NCBI GenBank assembly: GCA_030583745.1
Contig: CP129473.1
Span: 140,551 to 204,550, forward strand
DNA from: Minisyncoccota bacterium
GTDB lineage: Bacteria > Patescibacteriota > Minisyncoccia > Phycocordibacterales > BOKC01
DNA length: 64,000 nt
Reading direction: 5' to 3'
Of this stretch, positions 19,934 through 60,589 are shown piece after piece; within the stretch, counting starts at the first letter, position 1; each line of letters begins with the position of its first letter. Under the pieces are notes generated by a model, which was not told the DNA's origin, ran no database searches, and saw nothing but the letters and a program-made list of their open reading frames with translations. The position numbers were made by a program, and so were the translations under genes.

Positions 19934-21016
19934 TCAGTCAGGTATCTTTCCTGACCTCAGCATTTCAATGAACATGTCAGACATGACAACCCCAGTTAGG
20001 AACTCAAGCCAGAGCCACTGCCCGTTGGGATTCAAGTCGACAAAAAACTCTTTCCCGTCCTGATCCACCAAAAAGTCCATTGAGCTGAAGGGAAGGTTGA
20101 AGTGATTAAGCACACCGAGGATTTTATCCCGCATATCTTTGGAGATACTGTAGGGGGTATACTCTACCTTCCCCAGCTCTCCTGACCTGATATCAAGAGG
20201 GCGGCCGCCTTTCATTGTTGCTTTGAAAGCGAAGAGATGCCTCCCGATAGCCACAATACGTAGCTCGTGCAGTACCGATATCTTTTCTTGGAAGATGGTT
20301 GGGCAAACGTAGAGTGAAGGATTTTCAAGGTCGTCCCTTGTAACTTCTTGAGTACGCAAGACATGGTAAGTGTCTTCTGATTCTACAAAGGGCACCTTGA
20401 GTGATTTTACGACCACCCCATTTGCACACTCATGGTAGAATGTTTCAATCAACCGGCGGTCCCTAGTTATGAGTGTCTTCGGTACGTTCAAGCCGACTTC
20501 GTGGGCGACAGAGAGTTGGTTTGGTTTTACTCTGGCTTTGTACAGGAGCCATGGCGCAGTTACCCAAAAGGCGGACCCGAAAGCAAAGGTGATGCTCTTG
20601 ATCCACTCCTTGGTTTCTCCCTTGAAGAATTTCAAACCGACTTCGTCAAGCATCTCCGCCGCCTTCTTATCTGAAGAAGGCCTTCGGTACCAGACAGATC
20701 TAACATCTGTTTCCGTGACAGATTCTTGCTCTCTGCAGTCCAACAAAGTCAGCTGATTGGAGTCCGGTTTGAGACCAATTTCGTATCTGTCCAGTTCGTT
20801 TGTGTTAAACCTGAAGACTTGTACGCCAGTTTCCTGCATTCTTGAGCAGATAAAATCAGCATGGGTGTCGAAGTCGCTTGTGATAACTAAGGTAACGTCT
20901 TTCATTTTTGCACAATCCTTTTTCTTCTGTTTGACGTTCCGTGATGAAATTACCCGAAGATACTTTGAAAGTATCTTCGGGTATGTAGAACGAAGTAGCC
21001 GTTGAAGCTCAGTCAT
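19934..21016 (-). CDS. Microviridin/graspetide-type ATP-grasp ligase (MdnC/MvdD-like)
   Basis: Pre-ATP-grasp N-domain VTLVITSDFDTHADFICSRMQETGVQVFRFNTNEL; ATP-grasp core; start ATG overlaps the precursor stop (TGATG). Confidence 0.7.
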   Translation of the reverse strand: MTELQRLLRSTYPKILSKYLRVISSRNVKQKKKDCAKMKDVTLVITSDFDTHADFICSRMQETGVQVFRFNTNELDRYEIGLKPDSNQLTLLDCREQESVTETDVRSVWYRRPSSDKKAAEMLDEVGLKFFKGETKEWIKSITFAFGSAFWVTAPWLLYKARVKPNQLSVAHEVGLNVPKTLITRDRRLIETFYHECANGVVVKSLKVPFVESEDTYHVLRTQEVTRDDLENPSLYVCPTIFQEKISVLHELRIVAIGRHLFAFKATMKGGRPLDIRSGELGKVEYTPYSISKDMRDKILGVLNHFNLPFSSMDFLVDQDGKEFFVDLNPNGQWLWLEFLTGVVMSDMFIEMLRSGKIPD

Positions 21017-21162
21017 CAATCCGACTGAGCATCGTCTGCCACCGGCGGGGTGCGGCAGTAGGTATCACCACTGCAAACCGCAGAAGCAGAATCAGGTTCC
21101 GGTTGATTTTCGCTTTTCGGGATTTCCAGAGACTTCTCGAGGAGAAATGGTTTGTTTTCCAT
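21016..21162 (-). CDS. Graspetide precursor peptide (48 aa)
   Basis: MENKPFLLEKSLEIPKSENQPEPDSASAVCSGDTYCRTPPVADDAQSD. Leader PFLLEKSL resembles the PFFARFL recognition helix; core rich in Thr/Ser/Asp; RBS aagga. Confidence 0.6.
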   Translation of the reverse strand: MENKPFLLEKSLEIPKSENQPEPDSASAVCSGDTYCRTPPVADDAQSD

Positions 21163-24741: not shown

Positions 24742-25800
24742 ATGAATAATAAGCCAGTATTTATAAAATCTCCAAAAGAGCTTGCCGAAATAAACCAGCA
24801 GAAATACAAACCCGTTTTTGTGGATGCTTTTTCAAGGCAAATAAAAGAACTTTTTTTTATTGAAAATCCGAGATTTTCTGTAGAAGACAAAAAAGAAGTA
24901 TATCGGAGTGGGGAATTCAAAGATTTTTTAAAGAAAAAAGAAAAAGATTTTGTTCTTATTTATTTCCCTTGGAGTAATCGTTTGATTAAGTGTGTCAAAG
25001 AAAATGATTATTTCAAACTCAAAACCAACCGCAATAGAGATTTAATAACAGAAAAAGAGCAGAAGAAATTGGCAGATTTTACTGTTGGCGTTGTAGGACT
25101 TTCGGTAGGTGCCAATATGGCAACTGCCTTGATTCACAGTGGTTTCTCTAAAAATATTAAACTCTCTGATTTTGACGAGCTTGATACCACAAACTTAAAC
25201 CGAATTAGGGCAAAGGTTTCAGAAATTGGAGACTCTAAAATTAGCATCGCCAGCCGGCAAATTTTTGAAATTAATCCATACGTTAAGATAAACTCTTTTC
25301 CTAAAGGATTAAATAAAAAAAATCTAAAGAATTTTCTGGCAGGTAATCCGAAACCCAAGCTTGTGTTTGAACTGATTGATGATTTTGAAATGAAGATTTT
25401 ATTAAGAAAAGAAGCTAGGAGATATAAAGTCCCTGTAATTATGCTTACAAGTTTAGGAGACAGCGTTTTAATTGATATAGAGAGGTATGACACAGAGCCG
25501 AAAACAAAATTATTTAATGGAAAAGTAAGTGAAAAAGTTTTAGACAAAATCCTTGCTGGAAGTTTGAGCGAAAAAGAGAAACATCAATGCGCTATAGATA
25601 TCGTTGATGGGAAAAATCTTCCATCAAAAGTCAAAAATTCAATAAACCAAATTGGTAAGACCCTCGCCGGTCGACCTCAACTTATGTCGACTGTAACCGT
25701 CGCTTCCGGTATTGCCGTTTTCCTTGCCCGAAAAATCGCTCTTAACGAGAAACTTAAAAGTGGCAGGAAGCTAGTGAAATTTAATAATTTTATTAAATGA
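24742..25800 (+). CDS. ThiF/MoeB/E1-like adenylyltransferase with a ~110-aa N-terminal extension (MccB-like or TOMM C-protein-like)
   Basis: GVVGLSVGANMATALIHSGF..IKLSDFDELDTTNLNRI ... INPYVKI; no Zn CxxC pairs. Confidence 0.7.
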   Translation: MNNKPVFIKSPKELAEINQQKYKPVFVDAFSRQIKELFFIENPRFSVEDKKEVYRSGEFKDFLKKKEKDFVLIYFPWSNRLIKCVKENDYFKLKTNRNRDLITEKEQKKLADFTVGVVGLSVGANMATALIHSGFSKNIKLSDFDELDTTNLNRIRAKVSEIGDSKISIASRQIFEINPYVKINSFPKGLNKKNLKNFLAGNPKPKLVFELIDDFEMKILLRKEARRYKVPVIMLTSLGDSVLIDIERYDTEPKTKLFNGKVSEKVLDKILAGSLSEKEKHQCAIDIVDGKNLPSKVKNSINQIGKTLAGRPQLMSTVTVASGIAVFLARKIALNEKLKSGRKLVKFNNFIK

Positions 25801-26864
25801 AGGACGTAATCAAAGAAATCCTAACCCTCGCAGTTAATGCCCCCTCCGGCCACAATTCCCAGCCGTGGACGTTTGAGGTGAAAAATAACTCTATTTTCGT
25901 TTATAACGTTCCAGATAAAGATAAAATTCTATTCAACTGGAAGCAGAGGGGATCTATGATTGCTCACGGTGCTTTGATTGAAAATATAGCAATAATCTCT
26001 TCAGAAAAAGGATATCGGGCGGACATAAAAATTCTTCCAAATGAAAAAGAAACCAATTTAACCGCAGAAATAAAACTAGAAAAAAGCTCGGAAGATTGTT
26101 CTTACAGGCATCTTTCTCCCTTCATCTTAAAACGAACCACTAATAGAAGACCTTACGAAATAAAATCTCTTGGAGACACAGATAGGGAGGCGTTAAAGAA
26201 TTTTATGGAAAAACATAATAATTCTGGATATGAAATTCTTTTGACAGAAGACAGGGAGAAAATCAATCAAGTGGTAGGACCTTTTAGTGCCGGAGATAGG
26301 TTACTTTTTGAAAATTTTTACGTTCACAAATCTCTTTTTGATAATGTAAATTGGACACTAAAAGAAGAGCGAGAAAAAAGAGAGGGTTTATATTTAGGAA
26401 CCAAAGAACTTAATTTAGCGGAAAGATTTTTATTTAAATACATAATGAGTAAATGGAGTTTTGTTGAGAATCTAAATAAAATCGGCTTTGCAGAAAAAGC
26501 CGGAGAAAAAAGAGCAGAACTTTACAAAAAATGCTCGGCTATGGGTTTGGTTACAGCTCCCAGTGATTCTCCAAGAGACTTTATAAATTCAGGAAGGGTT
26601 TTAGAAAGATTCTGGCTGACTGTAACATCTCTTGGTTTAAGCTTCCAGCCTGTATCTGTTGGGCTTCTTTATTTAGGACAAAGGTGTAAAATAGAAAAAC
26701 CGGAGGAATTGACACCCGGACAATTTGAATACGTTAGAAAAGCATATGGAATAGTGGAAAATGTGTTTAATGTTACTGATAAGATTCCGACTTTCAGCTT
26801 TCGAATCGGATACGCACCACCACCTTCTGCTAGTTCGCTAAAAAAATTGCCGGAGATTGTATAA
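25797..26864 (+). CDS. Nitroreductase-fold (SagB-type dehydrogenase-like) protein
   Basis: APSGHNSQPW motif; 355 aa two-lobed nitroreductase architecture; start overlaps the ThiF-like stop. Confidence 0.65.
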   Translation: MKDVIKEILTLAVNAPSGHNSQPWTFEVKNNSIFVYNVPDKDKILFNWKQRGSMIAHGALIENIAIISSEKGYRADIKILPNEKETNLTAEIKLEKSSEDCSYRHLSPFILKRTTNRRPYEIKSLGDTDREALKNFMEKHNNSGYEILLTEDREKINQVVGPFSAGDRLLFENFYVHKSLFDNVNWTLKEEREKREGLYLGTKELNLAERFLFKYIMSKWSFVENLNKIGFAEKAGEKRAELYKKCSAMGLVTAPSDSPRDFINSGRVLERFWLTVTSLGLSFQPVSVGLLYLGQRCKIEKPEELTPGQFEYVRKAYGIVENVFNVTDKIPTFSFRIGYAPPPSASSLKKLPEIV

Positions 26865-40022: not shown

Positions 40023-40125
40023 GTTTGTTCTTTGTCGTTGAGTTGTTTTATGAAGAGGGTAGTGTGTTGCTACTCTCATCACCCCCCGTCCTATTTCTTG
40101 GAGGACATACTGAAAGGAGCGAAAA

Positions 40126-40992
40126 ATGTTGGAGATTTTCCGTTTTGACTTGAGAGAGAATCCGAAGACGGGCAAGCCTCAGTGGCAGGCCCGACGGAAA
40201 GGCAGAGACGGCACGACGTGTTATATTGTCCCTGATGAGAGTCCCAGATTCCCCTCGTATGAGCAGGATGTTTGGCTCTGCGAGATCGGGGATCCGGTCT
40301 TCCTGTATCAGGACAAGAAGTCCCGAGTCGTTCAGGTCCGGCTCATCGCGCCGTGGCCGGAGAGGATGAAGCTTCTCTTTGTGCTTGGAGAGCGCGACGA
40401 GAAGCCCTTCTGGAGCGCGTCCGGGCGTGTCGGACCGGTGAATGTCACTTTCGTTGTCCACAAGTACAGCGAGGTGTCGCCTGATGAGACCAGTCCCGTC
40501 TGGAACTGCGGGCTGGATACCTTCATCATGGCCCAGAACCAGTACCGGATCATCGTTCCGGTTTGGCCGGAAGGACCGGTGGAAACCGAGCTCAGGACTC
40601 TTGACTTCACTGAAGACGAGAGCCCTGAAGGACGAGCCCAATTCGCCTGCCAATCGGCAAGCGACGGGGTCACCGTCAGGTATGTGGTTGACCGAGACCA
40701 CTACCTGCGCGTCAAAAACTCTGGCGAGTCCCGCTGGAGTTGTGCCTTCAAGCGGGATCTCTACACAAGCCCACTCTCCCGTGTGATCGCGGTCGTTCCC
40801 GTGTCTCCTGTGCCTCTCACCGCCCGAGGGAAAAGGCGACGGGAGAGACGTGAAGAGAGGGCGATTCGCAAGGCAGCAAGGCTCGAGGCCGAGCGCGAAT
40901 CGGCTCGGAAGCGCGCTGCCGAACGTCTGACGGGTGGTGGCACCCGGCGCTCCAACGGCGGTAAGAACAACAAGAAGGCTGCCACTACCTAA
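40126..40992 (+). CDS. GC-rich hypothetical protein with a basic C-terminal tail
   Basis: RBS gaaaggag; protein-like composition. The antisense ORF 40048..41058 is a GC shadow. Confidence 0.55.
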   Translation: MLEIFRFDLRENPKTGKPQWQARRKGRDGTTCYIVPDESPRFPSYEQDVWLCEIGDPVFLYQDKKSRVVQVRLIAPWPERMKLLFVLGERDEKPFWSASGRVGPVNVTFVVHKYSEVSPDETSPVWNCGLDTFIMAQNQYRIIVPVWPEGPVETELRTLDFTEDESPEGRAQFACQSASDGVTVRYVVDRDHYLRVKNSGESRWSCAFKRDLYTSPLSRVIAVVPVSPVPLTARGKRRRERREERAIRKAARLEAERESARKRAAERLTGGGTRRSNGGKNNKKAATT

Positions 40993-41007
40993 ACCTAACA
41001 ACTCAAT

Positions 41008-41036
41008 ACCGCACCTGCACCCCCGAGCCGTATGGG
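41008..41036 (+). terminator. Rho-independent terminator
   Basis: cacccccgagccgtatgggggtgtttttt. Confidence 0.7.
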
Positions 41037-41170
41037 GGTGTTTTTTGTTGATAAACAAATATCCGAGAGTAGTAACCGCTCTCGGTTTATTTTTTTTTAT
41101 TCTCTGTGGATTTTATTGTTGAAAATAAATAAGATAAGGTATAAAATTCTTTTCCAGGTTAATAGTTCTT

Positions 41171-53961: not shown

Positions 53962-54102
53962 GAGCGCGGTAGGAATGCGTGGCGGATTTTTGCCAAAGCT
54001 TGTATAGATGACGAAATTGTGGTAGCTTATTTCTGGATGAAATCCATGGTGGATTTCTCAAATTGCACATTCACAACTGAAAAAGGAGATCAAAATGGAA
54101 AC
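53962..54102 (+). repeat. Left copy of a ~140-bp inverted repeat carrying a shared promoter/leader/RBS/ATG for radical SAM gene 1
   Basis: Near-identical to the reverse complement of 63228..63366; contains alternative hairpins tggatgaaatcca / gaaatccatggtggatttc and RBS aaaggag. Confidence 0.8.
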
Positions 54103-55090
54103 AAGAATTGGACGTCAATACATCACTTCGAGGCAAGAACTCGGAATTGCTCGATCCGAAACACTTCAACATCTCTTTGAAAATCATTCAAAATCCTCAA
54201 CAACTGAAAATAAGGTGGGGTTCGCTTCACTTTATGTGACAGGACGTTGCCACCTGAACTGTCCACACTGTTACGCTGAAGAGGAGTTTGCTGGACTTTC
54301 AAAAGATGCTTCGACTGAACAGATGGTGAGAATCATCAACTTTCTGTGCCAGTTGACGAGCAGAATACAGCTCACTGGTGGGGAAATTTTCGTCCGAGCA
54401 GATCCTGAGTCTCGACGAAATGACACCCTTCTTTTGGTAGATGAAATCTCGCAACGCAATCGGGAAGTGATTATACAAACCACAGGAATGCATATCACTG
54501 TTCCAATGCTTGAGTTTTGTGCTGTACGTAACGTGAAGTGGTTTTCGCTTTCACTTGACGGTCCAGATGCAGAATCAAACAGTCTCATCCGAGGAAACGA
54601 CTCTGCGTTTACAAAGACAATAGAGTTAATTCCCCAGCTGAAACAATTCGGTTTTAAAGTAAAAGTCGGAACCACAATGACGGCCATTACCCAAAAACGA
54701 GAGAATCTTATCAGGGTTGGAGAGTTGATGGCGAAACTCGGCGTTGACAATTGGAAGATCACACAATTCTTCGGTCGGGAAAAGGGTCGAGCATCTGGAG
54801 AAAATGCACATTGGCTTAGTGTGCCTGACGAGCTCTTTTATTCTCTTACCACGGAACTGCAGAATATGTTTCAAGGCAAAGAGATGAGGGTGACGACACA
54901 TAGCGTCAATGACTTTTCTTCAAGCCCTGCTCTATTGGTTCAGCCCACAGGCATAATAACGGTGACTCACGGGGCTGACGATGTGTACGTTGGGAATGCC
55001 CTCACGGACAAACCAACAGACACAATTGCACGACTAGAATCAATGAGCGGAATCACTTCAATTCAGGTCAACGCCCAAAAGACTTACTAA
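54095..55090 (+). CDS. Radical SAM enzyme 1 (CxxxCxxC, no obvious SPASM domain)
   Basis: GRCHLNCPHCY cluster; GGE motif QLTGGEIF; LSLDGPDAESNSLIRG. Confidence 0.8.
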   Translation: METRIGRQYITSRQELGIARSETLQHLFENHSKSSTTENKVGFASLYVTGRCHLNCPHCYAEEEFAGLSKDASTEQMVRIINFLCQLTSRIQLTGGEIFVRADPESRRNDTLLLVDEISQRNREVIIQTTGMHITVPMLEFCAVRNVKWFSLSLDGPDAESNSLIRGNDSAFTKTIELIPQLKQFGFKVKVGTTMTAITQKRENLIRVGELMAKLGVDNWKITQFFGREKGRASGENAHWLSVPDELFYSLTTELQNMFQGKEMRVTTHSVNDFSSSPALLVQPTGIITVTHGADDVYVGNALTDKPTDTIARLESMSGITSIQVNAQKTY

Positions 55091-55104
55091 AAGAGGAGTA
55101 ATCT

Positions 55105-55833
55105 ATGAAGCCACTTTTTTCTCGAGAAGAGATGGAGAATGTTCTGAATTCTCCTAGGAAAGGAAGCGGATCAGGAATTGGCCTTTACCGTGAGGGATAT
55201 CGAACTCATGGTATTAATTTCTGGGGAATGAAGGTTGGAAGCAAAGTCCAAGAGTTTCTTGATAGAAACTCTAACACTGACTGGAGCCAGTCTTCTGTAC
55301 TGGAAATCGGTGCAGGCACGGGAAAAAATATCTTCGAGCTTGTTCGTATAGGTGTAAATAGGGCTGTTGCTGTAGAGATTGATTCAATTGCAATCAGTGT
55401 CTTTGTTGACACCCTCGTTCGTCTCGAAGAATGTGGACTTGTGCCCGAAGGCCGGGTTTCTATAGTGAAAGATGATGCACTACAGTTTCTGCGACACAAC
55501 AGTGAGCGGTTTGATATCGTTGTTTGCTATGGTGTACTGCACGTTTTGAAACAGCAAGAACAACTCGTTTTGTTGGCGAAAAGCGTGACAAATGCCGTAG
55601 CAAAAGGCGGTCATCTCATACTTCAAACAATCACTAACAAATATCCAGCACCAGCCTCACAGCCTGAGCTTGAAGGAGTGATCGTCACACCTAGACTAGT
55701 GAAAGAATTGTTCCCAAAGGATATATGGGAGATAATAAGTTGGGATGAGGAAGATATCGTCCATAGTCATCTAGGCTCAGAAGAAGATCATCGTCACGGC
55801 TCCGTCCGTTCAATTTTTAGGAGTCTACGGTGA
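55105..55833 (+). CDS. Class I SAM-dependent methyltransferase
   Basis: Motif I VLEIGAGTGKN. Confidence 0.75.
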   Translation: MKPLFSREEMENVLNSPRKGSGSGIGLYREGYRTHGINFWGMKVGSKVQEFLDRNSNTDWSQSSVLEIGAGTGKNIFELVRIGVNRAVAVEIDSIAISVFVDTLVRLEECGLVPEGRVSIVKDDALQFLRHNSERFDIVVCYGVLHVLKQQEQLVLLAKSVTNAVAKGGHLILQTITNKYPAPASQPELEGVIVTPRLVKELFPKDIWEIISWDEEDIVHSHLGSEEDHRHGSVRSIFRSLR

Positions 55834-56007
55834 AGAGTCCGAAGACAACATGGCCCTGACTGTCATAGCACAGTCAGGGCTTTCTTTATCATCTTTGGTA
55901 ATACTTTTGGACATACACTGAAGTATATGTTATGATATCGCAAGCCTTGGGATAATCTCGAGGTTTTGTTCTTTTACAATCCAATCCTGAAAGGAGGAAC
56001 AGCACGT

Positions 56008-56286
56008 ATGCGCACAGCAGAAGAAGTCATGATGCGCTGCAAGCTCATCCTCGATCAGCCGGACATCGTCCTTCTGGTCGATAAGAGCAGCAGTCCAACG
56101 GCGGCCTACGACATGGTCATGGACGCAACCCACAACGACGAGACCGCGAAAGCGGCTCGCTGGCTCGGCGTATTGAGAAGGGATTACCCCGATCGCTACG
56201 CCGAAATCACCCACAACACTCTCAGCCACGTTCAGAGGAACACGGCGAGGAAAGGAGAACGGAATGAAAACGACGTATGCAGTTGA
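56008..56286 (+). CDS. Small hypothetical protein (92 aa)
   Basis: RBS aaaggagg upstream of the ATG; overlaps the next gene by 23 nt. Confidence 0.4.
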   Translation: MRTAEEVMMRCKLILDQPDIVLLVDKSSSPTAAYDMVMDATHNDETAKAARWLGVLRRDYPDRYAEITHNTLSHVQRNTARKGERNENDVCS

Positions 56287-57586
56287 CCTACTCCACAGTC
56301 CTTCTGATGGAACGACGGTTGTGCTCTACGGTTGGGTGAAAGCCCGCCGGCGACATAATCACGTCGTTTTTCTGGACATCACGGACTCCACTGGTTCGGT
56401 GCAGTGTGTGGTCGAAGCTGGCAACAAGCCCGCTTTTGAACTCGCGCGGCGCATGAACCAGGAAACGGCGGTTAAGATCACTGGTGTCCTTGCGGATACT
56501 GGCCGAGCGAACCCGCAGCGGGAAATCCGCGTCGACAATATCGAGGTCATCGGCGTGAGCACCATCAGTGTCTCTCCGTATCCGCGGGGAAACATCGACA
56601 TTCAAGACCCGAGGTTGCAGGAGCAACTTTTGGACAAGCGGCATTTCTATCTCCGCAACGAGAAATTTGCCGCCATCCTGAAGTTTCGTCACGTCCTCAC
56701 AAGGATCGTGCATCAATGGTTCCATGAGAATGGGTTCATTGAGATCCACGCTCCGGTGCTGACACCAACGCCGCTGTACGACGATCGTACGGCTATGGCA
56801 ATCAAGGTACATGAGCAAGATGTATACCTGACACAGTGTGTTGGGTTCTATCTCGAACAAGCAGTTCATGCTCTCGAGAAGATCTACAACATCGGTCCCA
56901 GCTTCCGCGCCGAGGAGAGCCGCTCCAAGAGACATCTCATGGAGTACTGGCACATCAAGGCAGAGTTGGCGTTCGTGGACTTTGAGGACATGGCCTCAGT
57001 AGTCGAGCGGTTCATCCATGATGTGAGCGAGCAGTGTATCCGCGAGGGTCGCGAGCTTGCAAACATTATCGGCACCGAGATATGTGGCGACGGACTTAAA
57101 ACTCCGTTTCCGCGCATTGACTACGCCGAGGCGGTGGAGTGGCTCAAGACGCAGGGTTCCGATATTGAGTTTGGCAAAAGCATGGGTTCCGACGAGGAAA
57201 CTATGCTCTGCCAGCGGTTCGGCGACACTCCGTTTTGGATTGTCGGCATTCCACGACCCATCGAACCCTTTCCTTATGTGATTGACGCAGCCGATACTCG
57301 TCGAACGAAGACGGCTGATTTGATCGCAAGTCGAGGGTTTGGTGAGCTTCTCGGTATTGCCGAGAAGATTCATTCTCTGTCGATGCTCGATGAGCGGCTG
57401 GCAGAGAAAGGTAAAGCCGGTGACGCCCGCTACGAATGGTTGCGGGACCTTCGTCAATACGGTTGTGTACCGCACGGAGGGTTTGGTATGGGGCTTGAAC
57501 GGTTCATCCGTTGGCTCTTGCAGATCCCGCATGTGCGAGACACCATTCCTTTTCACCGAGCGTTCAGTAGGAGGATTGATCCATGA
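56264..57586 (+). CDS. Class IIb aminoacyl-tRNA synthetase paralog, AsnRS-like (archaeal/eukaryal type)
   Basis: N-terminal OB fold VVLYGWVKARRRHNHVVFLDITD; motif 2 FRAEESRSKRHLMEYWHIKAE; motif 3 GGFGMGLERF. Confidence 0.7.
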   Translation: MKTTYAVDLLHSPSDGTTVVLYGWVKARRRHNHVVFLDITDSTGSVQCVVEAGNKPAFELARRMNQETAVKITGVLADTGRANPQREIRVDNIEVIGVSTISVSPYPRGNIDIQDPRLQEQLLDKRHFYLRNEKFAAILKFRHVLTRIVHQWFHENGFIEIHAPVLTPTPLYDDRTAMAIKVHEQDVYLTQCVGFYLEQAVHALEKIYNIGPSFRAEESRSKRHLMEYWHIKAELAFVDFEDMASVVERFIHDVSEQCIREGRELANIIGTEICGDGLKTPFPRIDYAEAVEWLKTQGSDIEFGKSMGSDEETMLCQRFGDTPFWIVGIPRPIEPFPYVIDAADTRRTKTADLIASRGFGELLGIAEKIHSLSMLDERLAEKGKAGDARYEWLRDLRQYGCVPHGGFGMGLERFIRWLLQIPHVRDTIPFHRAFSRRIDP

Positions 57587-57638
57587 GTACCACATACGCC
57601 AAGCCAATCACGGCAAGGCATACCAAAAGGAGAACATC

Positions 57639-58946
57639 ATGCAAAGAACACTGATCAAGCAACTCGGATCCGAGGTCGGCAAGACCGTTCGGATCTGCGG
57701 ATGGGTGGGAACGTTCCGCGATCAAAAGCGGATGCAATTCATTATCGTCCGTGACCACACCGGCAATGTACAGGTGGTGCACGAGAAGTCGGCAAACGCC
57801 GAACTGACGGCAACAATCGCCAGCCTCACATCCGAAAGCGCAGTGGAAATCATCGGCAAGGTTATTGCCAATCCTATGGTCAAGCTGGGCGGGATGGAAG
57901 TGATGGCCGAATCAGTGAACATCGTCAGCAAGGCGGAAGCACTTCTGCCGTTTGGCGAAAGCCCGACCATCGAAACTCGACTGGACTGGAGATTTCTGGA
58001 CCTGCGTACTCCGCAGAACCTACTGATCTTCAAGATTCAGACGGCGGCCGAACACGCTATGCGTTCGTTCTGGACGGCGGAGGGGTTCATCGAGATGCAC
58101 TCCCCGAAGTTCATGGGTAGCGCAAGCGAGTCCGGTGCGGAGCTCTTCGAGGTAAAGTACTTCGACCGCAAGGCGTATCTCGCTCAGTCGCCTCAGTTTT
58201 ACAAACAGATGGCGATGACGGCGGGGTTCGACCGCGTGTTCGAGATCGGGCCGGTCTTTCGGGCCAACCCGTCCTTCACTTCGCGGCACGACACGGAGTT
58301 CACCAGCGTGGACGTCGAAATCTCGTGGATTGACTCCCACGAGGACGTCATGCAGCTTGAGGAACGTTGGCTTCGCCATGTGCTTCAGGTGGTGAAAGCC
58401 GAGTACGGCGAGGAGATCAAGGCGACGTTCGGCACGGAGATCACGGTTCCCGAGCTTCCGTTTCCGCGTGTGACTATGGAAGAGGCGTACAACATCCTCG
58501 ACCAGATGGGTCACCGAATCGAGCGGGGCGAAAAGGGCGACCTCGATCCGGAGGGCGAGCGACTCTTGTGTCGACACTTCCACGAGAAGACCGGCCACGA
58601 GTTCGTCTTCGTCACCGAGTACCCTGCTGTGGTGCGAGCGTTCTACCACATGCGTCCCGAAGGAAAACCCCATCTCACTAAGAGCTTCGACCTTCTCTGG
58701 AAGGGACTTGAAGTGACGACAGGGGCGCAAAGGGAGCATCGCTACGAGATCTTGGTGGAGCAAGCCAAGGAGAAGGGGCTCTTGCTTGAGCCCATCCAGT
58801 ACTATCTGGACTTCTTCCGCTACGGCTGTCCGCCTCACGGCGGTTATGGCTTCGGTCTCACCCGTATGCTCATGGTGATGCTGAGCGCGAAAAGCGTGCG
58901 TGAGGTGACGTACCTCTACCGAGGCGTCAACCGACTCACTCCGTAA
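57639..58946 (+). CDS. aspS: Archaeal-type aspartyl-tRNA synthetase, GC-rich xenolog; motif 2 is FRAN rather than FRAE
   Basis: OB fold; YFDRKAYLAQSPQFYKQMAM; FRANPSFTSRHDTEF; GGYGFGLTRM. RBS aaaaggagaac upstream. ORF track start 57339. Confidence 0.75.
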   Translation: MQRTLIKQLGSEVGKTVRICGWVGTFRDQKRMQFIIVRDHTGNVQVVHEKSANAELTATIASLTSESAVEIIGKVIANPMVKLGGMEVMAESVNIVSKAEALLPFGESPTIETRLDWRFLDLRTPQNLLIFKIQTAAEHAMRSFWTAEGFIEMHSPKFMGSASESGAELFEVKYFDRKAYLAQSPQFYKQMAMTAGFDRVFEIGPVFRANPSFTSRHDTEFTSVDVEISWIDSHEDVMQLEERWLRHVLQVVKAEYGEEIKATFGTEITVPELPFPRVTMEEAYNILDQMGHRIERGEKGDLDPEGERLLCRHFHEKTGHEFVFVTEYPAVVRAFYHMRPEGKPHLTKSFDLLWKGLEVTTGAQREHRYEILVEQAKEKGLLLEPIQYYLDFFRYGCPPHGGYGFGLTRMLMVMLSAKSVREVTYLYRGVNRLTP

Positions 58947-59019
58947 GGAGGGGATCGACAACCAACAAGGCTCTGATTGTGTTTATCACAGTCAGAGCCT
59001 TTTTTCTTGCTATTGCTGT

Positions 59020-59272
59020 ATATATATCTTACTGCTATTATAGAAACATAAAGGCATTGAAGCTGCTGACACAGCTGAGCCAAGGGAAGAAATCTCGTAA
59101 AAGAGAAATTAGAGCCCTTCGGGATAAGCCCGTAATAGCTTCGAGTCGTAGTAAGGCGACGATGAGGTTCGGTATTGCCGAACAAAGTAAGGTGGCACCG
59201 CGAAAAGATCGCCCTTACAAGTTCATCGATTTTTAATCGGTGATTTTGTAAGGGTAATTTTTATTTAGAAAT
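59020..59272 (+). promoter_or_regulatory. T-box riboswitch leader (Asp-specific by inference) upstream of aspS
   Basis: Conserved T-box sequence agtaaggtggcaccgcg at 59184..59202; terminator hairpin cccttacaa...ttgtaaggg plus U-run at 59212..59266. Confidence 0.5.
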
Positions 59273-60589
59273 ATGCAGAGACTTCATATAAACGAAATTA
59301 AAGAACATATTGGAAAAAAGGTTAAGATTGCTGGTTTCGTCCAGACTATACGCGATCAAGGGAGCATCAAGTTTCTTCTGATACGCGACATTACGGGAGT
59401 TATTCAAGTTGTGGTCACCAAACATAGCCCCGATGCTTTAGCTATAGCAAAAACTCTTACTCACGAATCAATAGTGGAAATCGTTGGTTTAGCTAAGGAG
59501 GAAAAGCAAGCTCCTGGAGGTTTTGAAATTGAAGTAGAAAAACTCATAATTTTATCTCTTGCCGACCCAGAACTACCGATACCGATTATAGTGAAGGGAC
59601 AGCAAGGAGAAACAGAACAATCAATACGTCTTGATTGGCGTTGGATTGATCTGCGCAAGCCTCAAGGGTCACTCACATTCAAGGTATGGACCGAGCTTGA
59701 AGCAGCTTTCCGCGAATTTTGGACAAAAAACGGTTATATAGAAATACATTCTCCGAAACTAATTTCTACCGCAAGTGAGTCCGGTGCGGAAGTATTCGAG
59801 GTTAAATACTTTGATCGCAAGGCATATCTAGCTCAATCTCCGCAATTCTACAAACAGATGGCGATGTCAGCTGGATTTGAAAGAGTTTTTGAAGTCGGAC
59901 CGGTGTTCAGAGCGGAGCCATCATTTACATCGCGACATGCCACAGAGTTTACTGGTTATGACGCTGAAATATCATACATTGAGTCTCATGAAGACGTAAT
60001 GCAAGAGGAAGAGAAGGTTATCCAATTCGCCGTCAGTAAGGTAAAGGAGAAATTCGGCGAGGAAATAAAACAGGTTTTCGCCAGAGAAGTCGTAGCCCCG
60101 ACACTTCCATTCCCTAGATTGACTATCAAAGAGGCTAAAACGATACTTACCGAAATGGGCGTAACCGGAGAAAAGGACGGGGACTTGTCGTCAGAAGAAG
60201 AACGCAAGATTGGTGAGTATGTAATGAATACATTTGGCCATGAGTTTGTGTTTATCACTGAATATCCAGCAAAAGATCGTGCTTTCTATCATATGCGCGA
60301 TGAAAATGATAAAACTCTCACAAAAGGTTTTGACCTTCTTTGGAACGGTCTTGAAGTAACCACTGGCGCTCAACGAGAACATCGCTACGATGTGCTTGTA
60401 AAGCAGGCGAAAGAGAAAGGAATGGATTTAGAGTCTTTGAAATTCTATTTAAACTTCTTTAAGTACGGCTGTCCTCCACACGGCGGCTTCGGTATGGGGC
60501 CAAACAGGATGATTATGAAATTGCTCGGCATAGACAATGTACGAGACGCGATGTTTATCTACCGCGGAGTAAAACGCCTTGAACCATAA
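59273..60589 (+). CDS. aspS: Archaeal-type aspartyl-tRNA synthetase (intermediate-GC copy with a T-box leader, enclosed by the terminal inverted repeats)
   Basis: FRAEPSFTSRHATEF; GGFGMGPNRM; about 80% nucleotide identity to the GC-rich copy over conserved blocks, with third-position differences. Confidence 0.85.
   Translation: MQRLHINEIKEHIGKKVKIAGFVQTIRDQGSIKFLLIRDITGVIQVVVTKHSPDALAIAKTLTHESIVEIVGLAKEEKQAPGGFEIEVEKLIILSLADPELPIPIIVKGQQGETEQSIRLDWRWIDLRKPQGSLTFKVWTELEAAFREFWTKNGYIEIHSPKLISTASESGAEVFEVKYFDRKAYLAQSPQFYKQMAMSAGFERVFEVGPVFRAEPSFTSRHATEFTGYDAEISYIESHEDVMQEEEKVIQFAVSKVKEKFGEEIKQVFAREVVAPTLPFPRLTIKEAKTILTEMGVTGEKDGDLSSEEERKIGEYVMNTFGHEFVFITEYPAKDRAFYHMRDENDKTLTKGFDLLWNGLEVTTGAQREHRYDVLVKQAKEKGMDLESLKFYLNFFKYGCPPHGGFGMGPNRMIMKLLGIDNVRDAMFIYRGVKRLEP

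What the first reader, a model, noticed from the sequence alone, without database searches (positions are those of the whole stretch)
57639..60589. Tandem AspRS xenolog pair: a GC-rich copy with motif 2 FRAN next to an intermediate-GC copy (FRAE) that alone has a T-box leader
Seen: the two 435-438-aa archaeal-type AspRS genes are collinear and highly similar at protein level (for example YFDRKAYLAQSPQFYKQMAM is identical). Nucleotide differences are concentrated at third positions, driving one copy to high GC. The GC-rich copy has Asn instead of the conserved Glu after the motif-2 Arg (FRANPSF versus FRAEPSF). Only the downstream copy is preceded by a T-box-like leader. Established knowledge: extra aaRS copies in biosynthetic islands are frequently self-resistance genes against aaRS inhibitors (mupirocin, borrelidin, albomycin, indolmycin), and AspRS is the target of processed microcin C. 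Inference: the GC-rich copy could be an immunity/resistant AspRS or a neofunctionalised enzyme, arriving with the island. The AsnRS-like gene just upstream (56264..57586) may belong to the same logic.
Basis: partly seen in the sequence, partly recalled or inferred. Interest (0 to 1): 0.6.

Follow-up and report, generated by a model that had tools for sequence, protein, structure and literature searches.

The report
Imported AsnRS–AspRS gene cassette
A small GC-rich, horizontally acquired cassette in a Patescibacteria genome carries an intact second aspartyl-tRNA synthetase plus an asparaginyl-tRNA-synthetase-like gene. In related genomes the same gene pair almost always sits beside enzymes that destroy microcin-C-type antibiotics, so it may protect protein synthesis from such toxins, though this is not proven.

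Summary
There are two archaeal-type AspRS genes in tandem, the upstream one is GC-rich with motif 2 FRAN, and only the downstream FRAE copy has a T-box. However, the copies share only 56% amino-acid identity and belong to different clades, so they are old xenologs and not near-synonymous copies.

The GC-rich gene is part of a ~3.0-kb cassette (about 55945-59005) made of a 92-aa ORF, an AsnRS-like gene and the AspRS. It is 92% nt-identical to a cassette in another Patescibacteria MAG and is under strong purifying selection (dN/dS 0.05-0.13).

FRAN is not a private mutation. It is invariant in the whole clade of AspRS genes that follow this AsnRS-like gene (about 45 genomes, 56-100% identity).

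The FRAN copy has the anticodon-loop signature of discriminating AspRS. The T-box (GAC specifier) copy has the non-discriminating signature.

No inhibitor gene cluster lies in the window. Elsewhere, though, the pair is flanked in 41 of 46 loci by MccH-type HIT, MccF-type S66, S51 or amidohydrolase genes.

Ordinary housekeeping use remains a strong rival, because the MccH-type HIT genes also sit next to other AspRS types.

The parts
55852..55881 (+). Terminator-like hairpin after the methyltransferase gene. It belongs to the same sequence family as the terminators that end the cassette in L004 and L013, so it forms the left copy of a direct repeat flanking the cassette.
   Evidence: blastn match of window 55834-55887 to the cassette end in L013
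55908..55936 (+). Promoter-like site TGGACA-17-TATGAT with a TG extension. It lies just upstream of where similarity to other cassettes begins.
   Evidence: This is a consensus match only. Cassette similarity starts at 55945-55951.
55942..55966 (+). Conserved palindrome or hairpin (AAGCCTTGGGATAATCTCGAGGTTT) between the promoter and the small ORF. It is also present in L004, L013 and L010. It could be an operator or a 5' UTR element; its function is unknown.
56008..56286 (+). 92-aa ORF that overlaps the start of the AsnRS-like gene by 23 nt. The predicted fold is a five-helix protein with no known family or fold match. It is part of the cassette in a subset of lineages and is degraded in L009 and L010.
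   Evidence: (dN/dS 0.12-0.25)
56264..57586 (+). AsnRS-family gene (440 aa; NCBI WKZ26661.1 'asparagine--tRNA ligase') with a rewired amino-acid pocket: WHIKAE, G.AEKI and TQCVG.
   Evidence: (325 bits, below the cut-off of 414)
57639..58946 (+). GC-rich archaeal-type AspRS (435 aa; WKZ26662.1). It has motif 2 FRAN (Asn210), motif 3 GLTR and a discriminating-type anticodon loop VKLGG.
58967..59001 (+). Intrinsic-terminator-like hairpin plus a T run that ends the cassette. This is the right copy of the flanking hairpin repeat.
59048..59265 (+). T-box leader of the resident aspS. It has a short Stem I hairpin at 59061-59076 with the specifier GAC at 59068-59070, the T-box sequence at 59184-59202, and a terminator at 59212-59254 followed by a U run.
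59273..60589 (+). Resident archaeal-type AspRS (438 aa; WKZ26663.1). It has motif 2 FRAE (Glu215), motif 3 GPNR, a non-discriminating-type loop QAP-GG, and host-like GC3 of 0.39.

Best explanation
SHOWN:
- Gene 57639-58946 is an intact AspRS under purifying selection.
- It travels as a unit with an AsnRS-family gene and a small ORF on a cassette of about 3.0 kb. The cassette was acquired by horizontal transfer, probably from a GC-richer Patescibacteria lineage.
- The cassette lies directly upstream of the host's own AspRS, which is controlled by a tRNA-Asp-sensing T-box.
- Asn in place of the motif-2 Glu is the fixed state of the whole clade of AspRS genes that follow this AsnRS-like gene. It is not a lesion.

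INFERRED FROM LOOP SIGNATURES:
- The imported AspRS is of the discriminating kind (charges tRNA-Asp only).
- The resident T-box copy is of the non-discriminating kind.
- The cassette would therefore supply a self-contained, constitutively expressed route to both Asp-tRNA-Asp and Asn-tRNA-Asn that does not depend on the resident enzyme.

INFERRED FROM GENOME CONTEXT ELSEWHERE:
- In other genomes this pair is almost always flanked by hydrolases of the kinds that destroy processed microcin C: MccH-type HIT, MccF-type S66, and also S51 and amidohydrolase genes.
- The changed Glu is the residue that grips the adenine of tight-binding aspartyl-adenylate mimics.
- The most likely reason for the pair being kept, exchanged between lineages and present here as an extra copy is to protect Asp/Asn charging against aspartyl-adenylate-mimicking antibiotics, through a less sensitive or bypass target.
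For: Intact and selected:
- Full-length class IIb domains. NF003483 scores 490 bits against a cut-off of 353.
- The Asp-recognition elements QSPQxxK, the D of 'SVDVE', GAQREHR and the motif-3 Arg are all kept.
- dN/dS against L008, L004, L013 and L009 is 0.08-0.10 for the AspRS, 0.05-0.13 for the AsnRS-like gene and 0.12-0.25 for the sORF.

Horizontal transfer:
- 3019 bp at 92% nt identity to L008 and about 81% to L004, in an unrelated gene context.
- GC3 of 0.62/0.73 against a mean of 0.40 for neighbouring ORFs (z=3.5).
- In the tree the window copy sits with L008, L004, L009, L013, L011 and L014. L014 is a GC-rich host in which the pair's composition looks native.
- The junctions are confirmed by independent assemblies.

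FRAN is clade-wide:
- 115 of the 120 closest homologues carry it.
- It is invariant in all pair-linked copies.
- N, D and E all occur at this position in the nearest 50%-identity clusters.

The pair is conserved:
- The AsnRS-like gene is immediately followed by a FRAN AspRS in about 45 of 49 genomes.

Discriminating versus non-discriminating signature:
- FRAN clade 'VKLGG' resembles the T. kodakarensis AspRS 'AKLG'.
- Native 'QAP-GG' resembles the T. thermophilus non-discriminating AspRS2 (1N9W) 'KA-PGG' and S. tokodaii 'RAP-RG'.

T-box:
- The GAC specifier sits in a covarying hairpin that is conserved in L008.

Antibiotic link:
- 41 of 46 loci have HIT, S66, S51 or Amidohydro_2 genes next to the pair, in shuffled order. 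HIT, S66 and S51 are largely mutually exclusive.
- All 20 full-length HIT neighbours carry the MccH signature ExxxxxHxHxKxx plus Phe in place of the HinT His (signature and Parcubacteria MccH activity from PMC7157772).
- The S66 profile matches MccF-like chains at 1e-106 to 1e-82, against 1e-44 to 1e-27 for LdcA. MccF protects against microcin C and LdcA does not (PMC8323819).
- In the reverse test, 20 of 49 informative HIT-anchored metagenome loci carry the FRAN pair.
- The motif-II Glu H-bonds the adenine amino group in the Asp-AMS and Asp-DACM complexes but not in the Asp-AMP complex of P. vivax AspRS (PMC12262901).
Against: - In the window itself no MccH, MccF or S51 gene is next to the cassette, and none was found anywhere in the 64 kb.
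- MccH-type HIT genes are also adjacent to bacterial-type (FRDED) and FRAE AspRS genes: 9 adjacent and 4 within 6 kb, out of 49 informative loci. The linkage is therefore to AspRS in general. It fits equally well with the pair being the ordinary housekeeping enzymes guarded by a detoxifier.
- The HIT, S51 and S66 genes have host-like GC3, unlike the pair.
- Nothing measures inhibitor sensitivity.
- Asn can still accept an H-bond from adenine N6.
- The discriminating/non-discriminating call rests on one loop. The mutational work behind it (Feng et al. 2003, Charron et al. 2003) is recalled from memory and could not be retrieved.
- Whether the 692-kb genome has GatCAB or another AsnRS is unknown.
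Confidence: 0.45

Rival explanations
1. This is plain housekeeping. The AsnRS-like plus AspRS pair is the normal Patescibacteria asnS-aspS operon for direct Asn and Asp charging. The window copy is an ordinary xenologous replacement or addition of a translation gene, and FRAN is a neutral clade trait. The neighbouring HIT, S66 and S51 genes serve AspRS-related housekeeping or Asp salvage, or are simply syntenic. Antibiotics play no part.
For: - Motifs are invariant and selection is strongly purifying across classes of the phylum at 50-67% identity, which is typical of an essential gene.
- No second AspRS is visible within 10 kb in most loci.
- In L028 a host-GC version of the pair occupies the same position upstream of a close relative (84%) of the resident aspS.
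- The AsnRS type occurs alone, next to tRNA-Asn, in non-CPR MAGs (L049).
- MccH-type HIT genes sit next to any AspRS type.
- NCBI annotates the genes as ordinary ligases.
- S51 is the family of the aspartyl dipeptidase PepE, which would fit Asp supply.
Against: - In 20 of 44 loci the pair's GC3 is at least 0.15 above the neighbouring ORFs. This means repeated transfer or replacement, which needs a driver.
- At least 9 of 46 loci, including the window, carry another AspRS within 10 kb.
- The neighbours are specifically of the MccH and MccF branches and not generic HinT or LdcA.
- Their shuffled and mutually exclusive arrangement looks like a functional module.
Confidence: 0.38
2. The pair is neofunctionalised. 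One or both enzymes no longer do standard aminoacylation. For example, the AsnRS-like protein, which has lost the canonical Asn-binding Glu and Arg, might amidate Asp-tRNA-Asn made by its partner, activate a different amino acid, or make or bind an aminoacyl-nucleotide.
For: - In the AsnRS-like family the residues aligned with T. thermophilus AsnRS Glu225, Gln367 and Arg368 are Lys, Glu and Lys. The Mg-site Ser is Ala and QSxQ is QCVG. All of these are invariant.
- The protein scores below both NCBIfam AsnRS cut-offs.
- The AspRS lacks the motif-2 Glu and the acidic residue before the motif-3 Arg.
- Strict adjacency of the two genes would fit sequential or heteromeric action.
Against: - Both proteins keep the anticodon-binding OB folds, the motif 2 and motif 3 arginines, and, in the AspRS, every Asp-recognition residue.
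- The AsnRS-like type stands alone in some genomes, where it is presumably the AsnRS (L049, L052).
- There is no carrier protein, exporter or other biosynthetic partner.
- A Lys plus Glu pair could still read an amide.
Confidence: 0.1
3. This is self-immunity for an inhibitor gene cluster in this window.
For: - A ThiF-family gene (24742-25800), an MvdD-like ATP-grasp gene (19934-21019), and a radical SAM plus methyltransferase pair directly upstream (54095-55833) are present.
Against: - The ThiF and nitroreductase genes are a split Rv1355c-type protein and not MccB (268 and 170 bits to NF005901).
- The alien block ends at about 55945 and 59005.
- The rSAM and MTase genes are not found with the cassette in other genomes.
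- The rest of the window is ordinary chromosome.
Confidence: 0.03
4. The GC-rich copy is a decaying duplicate, or the region is an assembly chimera.
For: None beyond the odd composition.
Against: - dN/dS is about 0.1 and the reading frames are intact. There are 58 members in the 90% identity cluster.
- The copy belongs to a different clade from the resident gene.
- The same junctions are seen in independent assemblies from several samples.
Confidence: 0.01

Closest known systems
AspRS2 of Thermus thermophilus and Deinococcus radiodurans (an archaeal-type second AspRS acquired horizontally by a bacterium; PDB 1N9W)
   Same: - It is an archaeal-genre AspRS of about 420-440 aa without the GAD insertion.
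- It is present as an additional, horizontally acquired copy beside another AspRS, in an organism that also has an AsnRS-type gene (PMC4206432, PMC2330236).
   Different: - In those bacteria the extra copy is the non-discriminating one, used with GatCAB.
- Here the imported copy has the discriminating-type loop and it is the resident T-box copy that looks like 1N9W.
- The imported copy has Asn in place of the motif-2 Glu, is fused into an operon with an AsnRS-like gene, and is itself repeatedly transferred.
Antibiotic-insensitive second aaRS genes (for example mupirocin-resistant IleRS, the albomycin SerRS2 and the agrocin 84 LeuRS AgnB2)
   Same: - An extra aaRS copy of foreign composition sits beside a resident copy.
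- It is horizontally mobile.
- It carries an active-site substitution at a ligand-contact residue.
   Different: - There is no linked producer cluster and insensitivity has not been measured.
- The substitution is a clade-wide trait.
- Two aaRS genes travel together.
- In the literature searched, target replacement has not been described as a microcin C defence.
Microcin C immunity genes mccF (S66) and mccH (HIT), including stand-alone homologues
   Same: - In related loci the neighbours of the pair carry the diagnostic MccH motif and fall in the MccF branch.
- A stand-alone Parcubacteria MccH homologue is experimentally active against McC1120 (PMC7157772).
   Different: - These genes are not in the window.
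- They are described in the literature as stand-alone genes. Their adjacency to AspRS genes is an observation made here.
- The cassette itself encodes no hydrolase.
T-box leaders with a truncated Stem I (described for actinobacterial ileS; recalled from memory)
   Same: - Stem I is reduced to a short hairpin that presents the specifier in its loop.
- Stem II/IIA-B-like elements, the T-box sequence and the antiterminator are present.
   Different: - This one is on an aspS gene of a Patescibacteria genome.
- Its specifier is GAC.
- It ends in an intrinsic terminator (transcriptional read-out) rather than an SD-sequestering helix.
- It scores below the Rfam gathering threshold.

Membership tests
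Archaeal/eukaryal-type aspartyl-tRNA synthetase (class IIb) | N-terminal OB-fold anticodon-binding domain plus class II core, without the bacterial GAD insertion; scores above the curated family cut-off. | tested here: met
   PF01336 plus PF00152; 435 aa; NF003483 490 bits against a cut-off of 353; best PDB match is T. kodakarensis AspRS at E=1e-107.
Archaeal/eukaryal-type aspartyl-tRNA synthetase (class IIb) | Aspartate-recognition residues (QSPQxxK Lys, the Asp after motif 2, the Arg of G.QR) and the motif 2 and motif 3 arginines. | tested here: met
   QSPQFYK 183-189, SVDVE, GAQREHR 362-368, R208 and R409 are all present and invariant in the clade.
Archaeal/eukaryal-type aspartyl-tRNA synthetase (class IIb) | Motif 2 signature fRxE, where the Glu contacts the adenine. 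| tested here: not met
   The motif is FRAN (Asn210). The acidic residue before the motif-3 Arg is also absent (GLTR). Both changes are fixed in the pair-linked clade. The role of the Glu is taken from PMC12262901 and PMC10831071.
Non-discriminating AspRS ('aspartate--tRNA(Asn) ligase', as annotated) | Charges tRNA-Asn as well as tRNA-Asp. The sequence proxy is Pro rather than Lys in the anticodon-binding loop (K85 of T. kodakarensis). | tested here: inconclusive
   By the proxy, the FRAN copy has Lys (VKLGG, like the discriminating enzyme) and the resident copy has Pro (QAP-GG, like 1N9W and 1WYD). Activity cannot be tested with these tools. The mutational basis of the proxy is recalled from memory.
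Asparaginyl-tRNA synthetase (for 56264-57586) | Scores above the curated equivalog cut-off. | tested here: not met
   NF003037 325 bits against a cut-off of 414; TIGR00457 306 bits against 342.6. The protein is still closer to AsnRS than to AspRS (PDB 1X54 E=3e-82 against AspRS 1e-51).
Asparaginyl-tRNA synthetase (for 56264-57586) | Asn side-chain recognition by the Glu after motif 2 and the Arg of GGSQR (Glu225 and Arg368 of T. thermophilus AsnRS; the roles are recalled from memory). | tested here: not met
   The aligned residues are Lys231 (WHIKAE) and Lys368 with Glu367 (AEKI). They are invariant in 44 family members.
T-box leader (RF00230) | Rfam gathering score. | tested here: not met
   53.7 bits against a gathering score of 93 (E=3.6e-10). 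74 model positions of Stem I are missing.
T-box leader (RF00230) | Specifier codon presented in Stem I, the conserved T-box sequence, and mutually exclusive antiterminator and terminator helices. | tested here: met
   GAC plus A sits in a hairpin loop whose stem covaries with the L008 homologue. AAAGUAAGGUGGCACCGCG is present, and there is a terminator hairpin with a U run. The fold z-score is -6.1.
aaRS self-resistance gene of an inhibitor biosynthetic cluster | Co-location with the inhibitor's biosynthetic genes. | tested here: not met
   No mcc-like or other aaRS-inhibitor cluster is present in the 64 kb or next to the pair in 46 loci.
aaRS self-resistance gene of an inhibitor biosynthetic cluster | Reduced sensitivity of the enzyme to the inhibitor. 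| not testable with these tools
   This needs enzyme assays with processed microcin C or Asp-AMS.
MccH clade of HIT hydrolases (neighbours of the pair in related loci, not in the window) | ExxxxxHxHxKxx motif with the third His replaced by Lys, and Phe replacing the N-terminal catalytic-support His (PMC7157772). | tested here: met
   20 of 20 full-length HIT neighbours carry it, for example FEGFGVDHVHAKLF and ..NTEGFSVVITK...
MccF branch of peptidase S66 (neighbours in related loci) | Closer to MccF than to the murein LD-carboxypeptidase LdcA. | tested here: met
   A profile of 10 neighbours gives 7e-106 to 9e-82 for MccF-like and MccF chains, against 5e-44 to 2e-27 for LdcA. Activity was not tested.
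Mobile element (integron cassette, transposon or genomic island) | Integrase or transposase, attC or terminal inverted repeats, or target-site duplication. | tested here: inconclusive
   There is no recombinase in the cassette or its immediate flanks. Only a direct repeat of a terminator-type hairpin flanks it. The transfer mechanism is unknown, and homologous replacement of a resident pair is possible (compare L028).

The most novel reading that the evidence does not exclude
Patescibacteria carry a conserved and frequently exchanged anti-microcin-C island. In it, a variant AspRS (motif-2 Glu to Asn, discriminating type) and a rewired AsnRS act as toxin-insensitive replacements for the sensitive non-discriminating AspRS route, alongside MccH, MccF or S51 detoxifying hydrolases. 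This would be the first case of target replacement as a defence against peptide-nucleotide antibiotics. It would also be evidence that such antibiotics shape the ecology of these episymbiotic bacteria.
Probability: 0.3. Interest if true: 0.75.

Novelty: new variant of a known kind. Interest (0 to 1): 0.55.

Why it matters
If the link holds, it adds target replacement to the known defences against microcin-C-type Trojan-horse antibiotics, which are efflux, acetylation, MccF and MccH. It would identify a natural AspRS variant that could show how to evade, or how to design around, aspartyl-adenylate mimics. It would also imply that aaRS-targeting peptide-nucleotides are a significant selective force on ultra-small groundwater bacteria.

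Even without the antibiotic link, three things are useful. First, there is a strictly conserved AsnRS-like/AspRS operon with non-canonical active-site residues. Second, its GC3 is repeatedly alien (20 of 44 genomes). Third, a T-box with a minimal Stem I occurs in Patescibacteria. These are concrete leads for aaRS evolution and for annotation, because both AspRS genes are currently labelled 'aspartate--tRNA(Asn) ligase'.

Tried and rejected
- **Recent duplication or pseudogene:** rejected (56% identity, different clades, dN/dS about 0.1).
- **Assembly chimera:** rejected.
- **MccB-like producer gene in the window:** the ThiF gene at 24742 plus the nitroreductase gene is a split Rv1355c-family protein. 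No short Asn-terminal peptide gene was pursued.
- **tRNA gene linked to the pair:** none is consistently present.
- **Phage or plasmid carriage:** the viral-contig scan gave only hits at 48-51% identity, which are not the cassette. The plasmid and phage BLAST collections were not searched.
- **Anti-phage defence membership:** PADLOC finds nothing for the three cassette proteins. There are only weak pVip and mad2 hits for the upstream rSAM and MTase genes.
- **sORF function:** no Pfam, NCBIfam or PADLOC hit. The AlphaFold model (pLDDT 81) has no Foldseek PDB match at E<=0.001.
- **Carrier-protein idea for the sORF** (aaRS-like amino acid:carrier-protein ligases): dropped, because there is no PP-binding signature.
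- **Synteny with the relative L028:** only the three aaRS genes are shared, so in-situ replacement and fresh insertion could not be told apart.
- **Literature:** there is nothing on this pair in Patescibacteria and nothing on an AspRS as microcin C immunity. The papers on the K85P and W26H specificity switch could not be retrieved.
- **Prevalence of the pair in the phylum:** this could not be estimated. The genome scan relied on the peptide MEYWHIKA, so the apparent invariance of that stretch and the count of 49 genomes are subject to ascertainment bias.

Full report
**What is at the coordinates**

The window has a GC content of about 38-41%. The stretch from 56 to 59 kb stands out at 54-58%. 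It holds three co-directional genes.
- A 92-aa ORF at 56008-56286.
- A 440-aa AsnRS-family gene at 56264-57586, which overlaps the small ORF by 23 nt.
- A 435-aa AspRS at 57639-58946, which starts 52 nt after the AsnRS-family gene.

A terminator-like hairpin follows at 58967-59001. After it come a leader RNA and a second AspRS of 438 aa at 59273-60589.

Both AspRS proteins have the OB fold and the class II core. Both pass the NCBIfam archaeal-type AspRS model, at 490 and 515 bits against a cut-off of 353. The AsnRS-like protein is closest to AsnRS but falls below both curated AsnRS cut-offs, at 325 against 414 bits.

The exact proteins are in NCBI as WKZ26661-WKZ26663 from a Candidatus Paceibacterota MAG with a 691,769-bp contig. 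They are annotated as one asparagine--tRNA ligase and two aspartate--tRNA(Asn) ligases.

**Checking the observation**

The following points hold.
- The genes are in tandem.
- The 20-residue stretch is identical in the two proteins.
- The upstream copy has FRAN and the downstream copy has FRAE.
- The upstream copy is GC-rich.

The claim that the two are highly similar with changes concentrated at third positions does not hold.
- The proteins are 56% identical.
- 33%, 26% and 71% of first, second and third codon positions differ.
- Synonymous sites are saturated.

What is concentrated at third positions is the GC difference, with GC3 of 0.75 against 0.39.

The T-box claim holds with a caveat.
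- Rfam's T-box model matches 59048-59219 at E=3.6e-10. At 53.7 bits this is under the gathering score of 93, because most of Stem I is missing.
- A homologous leader precedes the corresponding AspRS in locus L008, at 56 bits.
- In the alignment of the two leaders, the short Stem I hairpin keeps the loop sequence GAC-A while its stem covaries. The T-box sequence and terminator are conserved.
- The leader folds much better than shuffled controls, with z=-6.1.

It is therefore a genuine T-box-type leader that reads tRNA-Asp. Nothing similar lies upstream of the GC-rich genes.

The arrangement is not an assembly artefact. An independent contig recovered from six samples spans both junctions.

**The GC-rich block is a transferred cassette**

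- Nucleotide similarity to a Patescibacteria MAG (L008) runs from 55951 to 58968 at 92%. Similarity to a Hainich groundwater MAG (L004) runs from 55945 to 59041 at 81%.
- In L004 the same three genes sit between unrelated genes, a NUDIX gene on one side and a HIT gene on the other.
- GC3 of the cassette genes (0.62-0.75) is 3.5 standard deviations above that of the neighbouring ORFs.
- All three genes are under purifying selection against four other copies. dN/dS is 0.08-0.10 for the AspRS, 0.05-0.13 for the AsnRS-like gene and 0.12-0.25 for the small ORF.
- The cassette carries its own promoter-like site (55908-55936) and a conserved palindrome (55942-55966).
- Its terminator hairpin has a second copy of the same sequence family to the left of the cassette, at 55852-55881.
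- No recombinase is present, so the transfer mechanism is open.

In L008 the cassette also abuts the 5' side of a T-box aspS leader, but in the opposite orientation. In L028 a divergent version of the pair with host-like GC occupies the same position upstream of an 84%-identical relative of the resident AspRS. Replacement of a resident pair by a xenolog is therefore as likely as a fresh insertion.

**FRAN is a family trait**

- Of the 120 closest homologues (68-97% identity, mostly from Patescibacteria MAGs), 115 have FRAN.
- A scan of one genome per species with the AsnRS-like protein returned 49 loci. In about 45 of them the AsnRS-like gene is immediately followed by an AspRS.
- Every one of those AspRS copies, from 56 to 100% identity, has GPVFRANPSFTSRHDTEF and a motif 3 ending in G.TR or G.SR.
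- In a distance tree these pair-linked copies form one clade. The resident FRAE copy falls in another clade, together with L028 (FRAE) and with L008 and L034 second copies that are themselves FRAN.
- Among 50%-identity cluster representatives, the nearest clusters have N, D or E at this position, and more distant ones have E.

The decay alternative is excluded.

**What the two AspRS copies are likely to do**

The imported enzyme keeps every aspartate-recognition element and both catalytic arginines.

The two copies differ in the anticodon-binding loop that distinguishes the solved archaeal-type enzymes.
- The pair-linked clade has VKLGG, like the T. kodakarensis AspRS (AKLG).
- The resident copy has QAP-GG, like the T. 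thermophilus non-discriminating AspRS2 (KA-PGG; PDB 1N9W, so named by its depositors) and the S. tokodaii enzyme (RAP-RG).

From memory, Lys85-to-Pro in the T. kodakarensis enzyme relaxes its tRNA specificity (Feng et al. 2003). I could not retrieve that paper.

On this basis the imported AspRS is probably discriminating. That makes functional sense of its invariable AsnRS-like partner. The resident T-box enzyme is probably non-discriminating. This is an inference.

**The AsnRS-like partner is unusual**

It is aligned here to T. thermophilus and P. horikoshii AsnRS.
- The Glu after motif 2 is Lys (WHIKAE).
- GGSQR is G.AEK, so the Arg becomes Lys, the Gln becomes Glu, and the Mg-site Ser becomes Ala.
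- QSxQ is QCVG.

All of these are invariant in 44 sequences. The assignment of Glu225 and Arg368 as the Asn-reading residues is from memory.

The protein keeps the motif 2 and motif 3 arginines and the OB fold. In two non-CPR MAGs it stands alone, once next to tRNA-Asn. It is most simply a divergent AsnRS, but that has not been shown.

**Context across genomes, the main new result**

I clustered the ORFs around the pair in 46 distinct loci. The recurrent immediate neighbours are listed below.
- HIT-family proteins: 21 loci.
- Peptidase S51: 14 loci.
- Amidohydrolase_2: 12 loci.
- A 7TM histidine kinase: 11 loci.
- Peptidase S66: 10 loci.
- A methyltransferase with a 126-aa protein.

The order and orientation of these genes are shuffled. 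HIT, S51 and S66 are largely mutually exclusive. In all, 41 of 46 loci have at least one of HIT, S51, S66 or Amidohydrolase_2.

The S66 proteins belong to the MccF branch. Their profile gives E=1e-106 to 1e-82 for MccF-like and MccF chains, against 1e-44 to 1e-27 for LdcA. MccF removes the aspartate from processed microcin C, whereas LdcA does not protect (PMC8323819).

All 20 full-length HIT neighbours carry the MccH-clade signature ExxxxxHxHxKxx and have Phe in place of the HinT histidine. Yagmurov et al. defined that signature. They showed that MccH cleaves the P-N bond of aspartamide-adenylate, and that a stand-alone Parcubacteria homologue protects E. coli from microcin C (PMC7157772). 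They did not mention any AspRS neighbour.

Processed microcin C inhibits AspRS. The motif-II Glu that is Asn here H-bonds the adenine amino group in complexes of P. vivax AspRS with tight-binding aspartyl-sulfamoyl-adenosines, but points away in the Asp-AMP complex (PMC12262901). The equivalent Glu contacts the adenylate in human AsnRS (PMC10831071).

**A control that tempers the conclusion**

I fetched 80 metagenome loci with a profile of the MccH-type HIT proteins. More than 600 matches exist. Of these loci, 49 have informative flanks.
- 20 have the FRAN pair beside the HIT gene.
- 9 have another AspRS/AsnRS-type gene directly adjacent, of the bacterial FRDED type or the archaeal FRAE type.
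- 4 have an AspRS within 6 kb.
- 16 have none.

The HIT gene is therefore linked to AspRS genes of any type. This strongly ties this HIT clade to AspRS. It does not single out the FRAN enzyme as the insensitive one.

The HIT, S51 and S66 genes also have host-like GC3. The pair, by contrast, is at least 0.15 above its neighbours in 20 of 44 loci. This pattern suggests resident guard genes with a target operon that is repeatedly replaced.

**The window itself**

- No MccH, MccF, S51 or Amidohydrolase_2 homologue occurs anywhere in the 64 kb.
- No GatCAB is present.
- No inhibitor biosynthetic cluster is present. The ThiF and nitroreductase genes at 24742-26864 are a split Rv1355c-type protein.
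- The rest is ordinary chromosome: DprA, SerRS, Dus, holB, NDH-2, glycogen genes, TGT, UvrABC and Ddl.
- The small ORF is a predicted five-helix protein (pLDDT 81) with no sequence-family or fold match. It has decayed in two lineages.

**Verdict**

The finding is a real, intact, horizontally acquired AsnRS-like/AspRS cassette placed next to a T-box-regulated resident AspRS.

The FRAN residue is a clade-wide feature. It is not evidence of decay, and by itself it is not evidence of a special function in this copy.

It receives unexpected comparative support from the near-universal association of this gene pair with microcin-C-immunity-type hydrolases.

I rate the bypass or less-sensitive-target explanation at about 0.45, ordinary housekeeping use at about 0.38, and neofunctionalisation at about 0.1. 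Enzyme assays and a whole-genome inventory would decide between them.

Noticed in passing
L061-L140 (metagenome loci) and L004-L056: HIT genes of the MccH clade (ExxxxxHxHxKxx) in Patescibacteria-type contigs are genomically linked to AspRS genes of any type. Of 49 informative loci anchored on the HIT gene, 29 have an AspRS/AsnRS-type gene directly adjacent, and 4 more have one within 6 kb. The literature treats these HIT genes as stand-alone.
   Followed up: yes
window 59048-59265; L008 9374-9625 (- strand): This T-box leader has Stem I reduced to a 5-bp hairpin that presents GAC-A in a 6-nt loop. It still ends in an intrinsic terminator. It is conserved, with stem covariation, in a second Patescibacteria genome. 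It scores below Rfam's gathering threshold, so standard annotation misses it.
   Followed up: partly
window 55852-55881 and 58967-59001: The cassette is flanked by two copies of one terminator-type hairpin family (GCCCTGACTGT...ACAGTCAGGGC). The left copy resembles the cassette-end terminators of L004 and L013 more than the window's own right copy does. It may be a trace of how the cassette recombined in.
   Followed up: partly
window 55942-55966: A conserved palindrome (CCTTGGGATAATCTCGAGG) lies between the cassette promoter and the 92-aa ORF. It is also present in L004, L010 and L013. It could be an operator, possibly for the small protein, or a 5' UTR hairpin.
   Followed up: no
window 56264-57586 and 44 homologues in L004-L055: The AsnRS-family protein has invariant replacements at the positions that read the Asn side chain in solved AsnRS structures: Glu to Lys in WHIKAE, and GGSQR to G.AEK. 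QSxQ is QCVG. It scores below NCBIfam's AsnRS cut-offs yet is annotated as asparagine--tRNA ligase.
   Followed up: partly
L004-L056: In 20 of 44 genomes the AsnRS-like/AspRS pair has GC3 at least 0.15 above the surrounding ORFs, across sub-clades that are only about 60% identical to one another. The adjacent HIT, S51 and S66 genes have host-like GC3. Repeated replacement, or some compositional drive acting specifically on this operon, is unexplained.
   Followed up: partly
L008, L014, L015, L026, L035, L036, L038, L040, L041: An Amidohydro_2 (PF04909) gene with no NCBIfam or PDB relative co-occurs with the MccH-type HIT gene in 9 of its 12 occurrences next to the pair. It tends to be GC3-rich like the pair. 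It might process the isoasparagine that MccH releases, but this is speculation.
   Followed up: no
L049 10001-11332; L052 10001-11323: The same unusual AsnRS type (WHIKAE/AEKI) occurs without an adjacent AspRS in two MAGs labelled Gammaproteobacteria (GC about 0.36). In L049 a tRNA-Asn gene lies 1.3 kb upstream.
   Followed up: no
window 54095-55833: A radical SAM protein and a SAM methyltransferase lie directly upstream of the cassette. The radical SAM protein gives weak viperin-like hits (PADLOC pVip E=8e-16; NCBIfam viperin 52 bits against a cut-off of 180). The methyltransferase gives a PADLOC mad2 hit at E=1.5e-14. GC is slightly raised (0.44). They do not travel with the cassette elsewhere.
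   Followed up: partly
window 24742-26864: A ThiF-family gene and a nitroreductase-like gene together match the two halves of the Rv1355c-family fusion protein. An aminotransferase, a PaaK-like ligase, a 7TM histidine kinase and a NUDIX-AdoHcyase-like protein lie nearby, in a very AT-rich stretch (GC 0.27-0.36).
   Followed up: partly
window 40048-41058 and 19934-21019: There are other short GC-rich patches. The 40-41 kb patch (GC 0.57) has overlapping ORFs on both strands with no Pfam hit. The 20-21 kb patch (GC 0.47) encodes a protein with an MvdD-type pre-ATP-grasp domain.
   Followed up: no
window 8048-9976: A 642-aa protein has a C-terminal Peptidase_S74 'chaperone of endosialidase' domain, which is typical of phage tail-fibre or tailspike proteins.
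   Followed up: no
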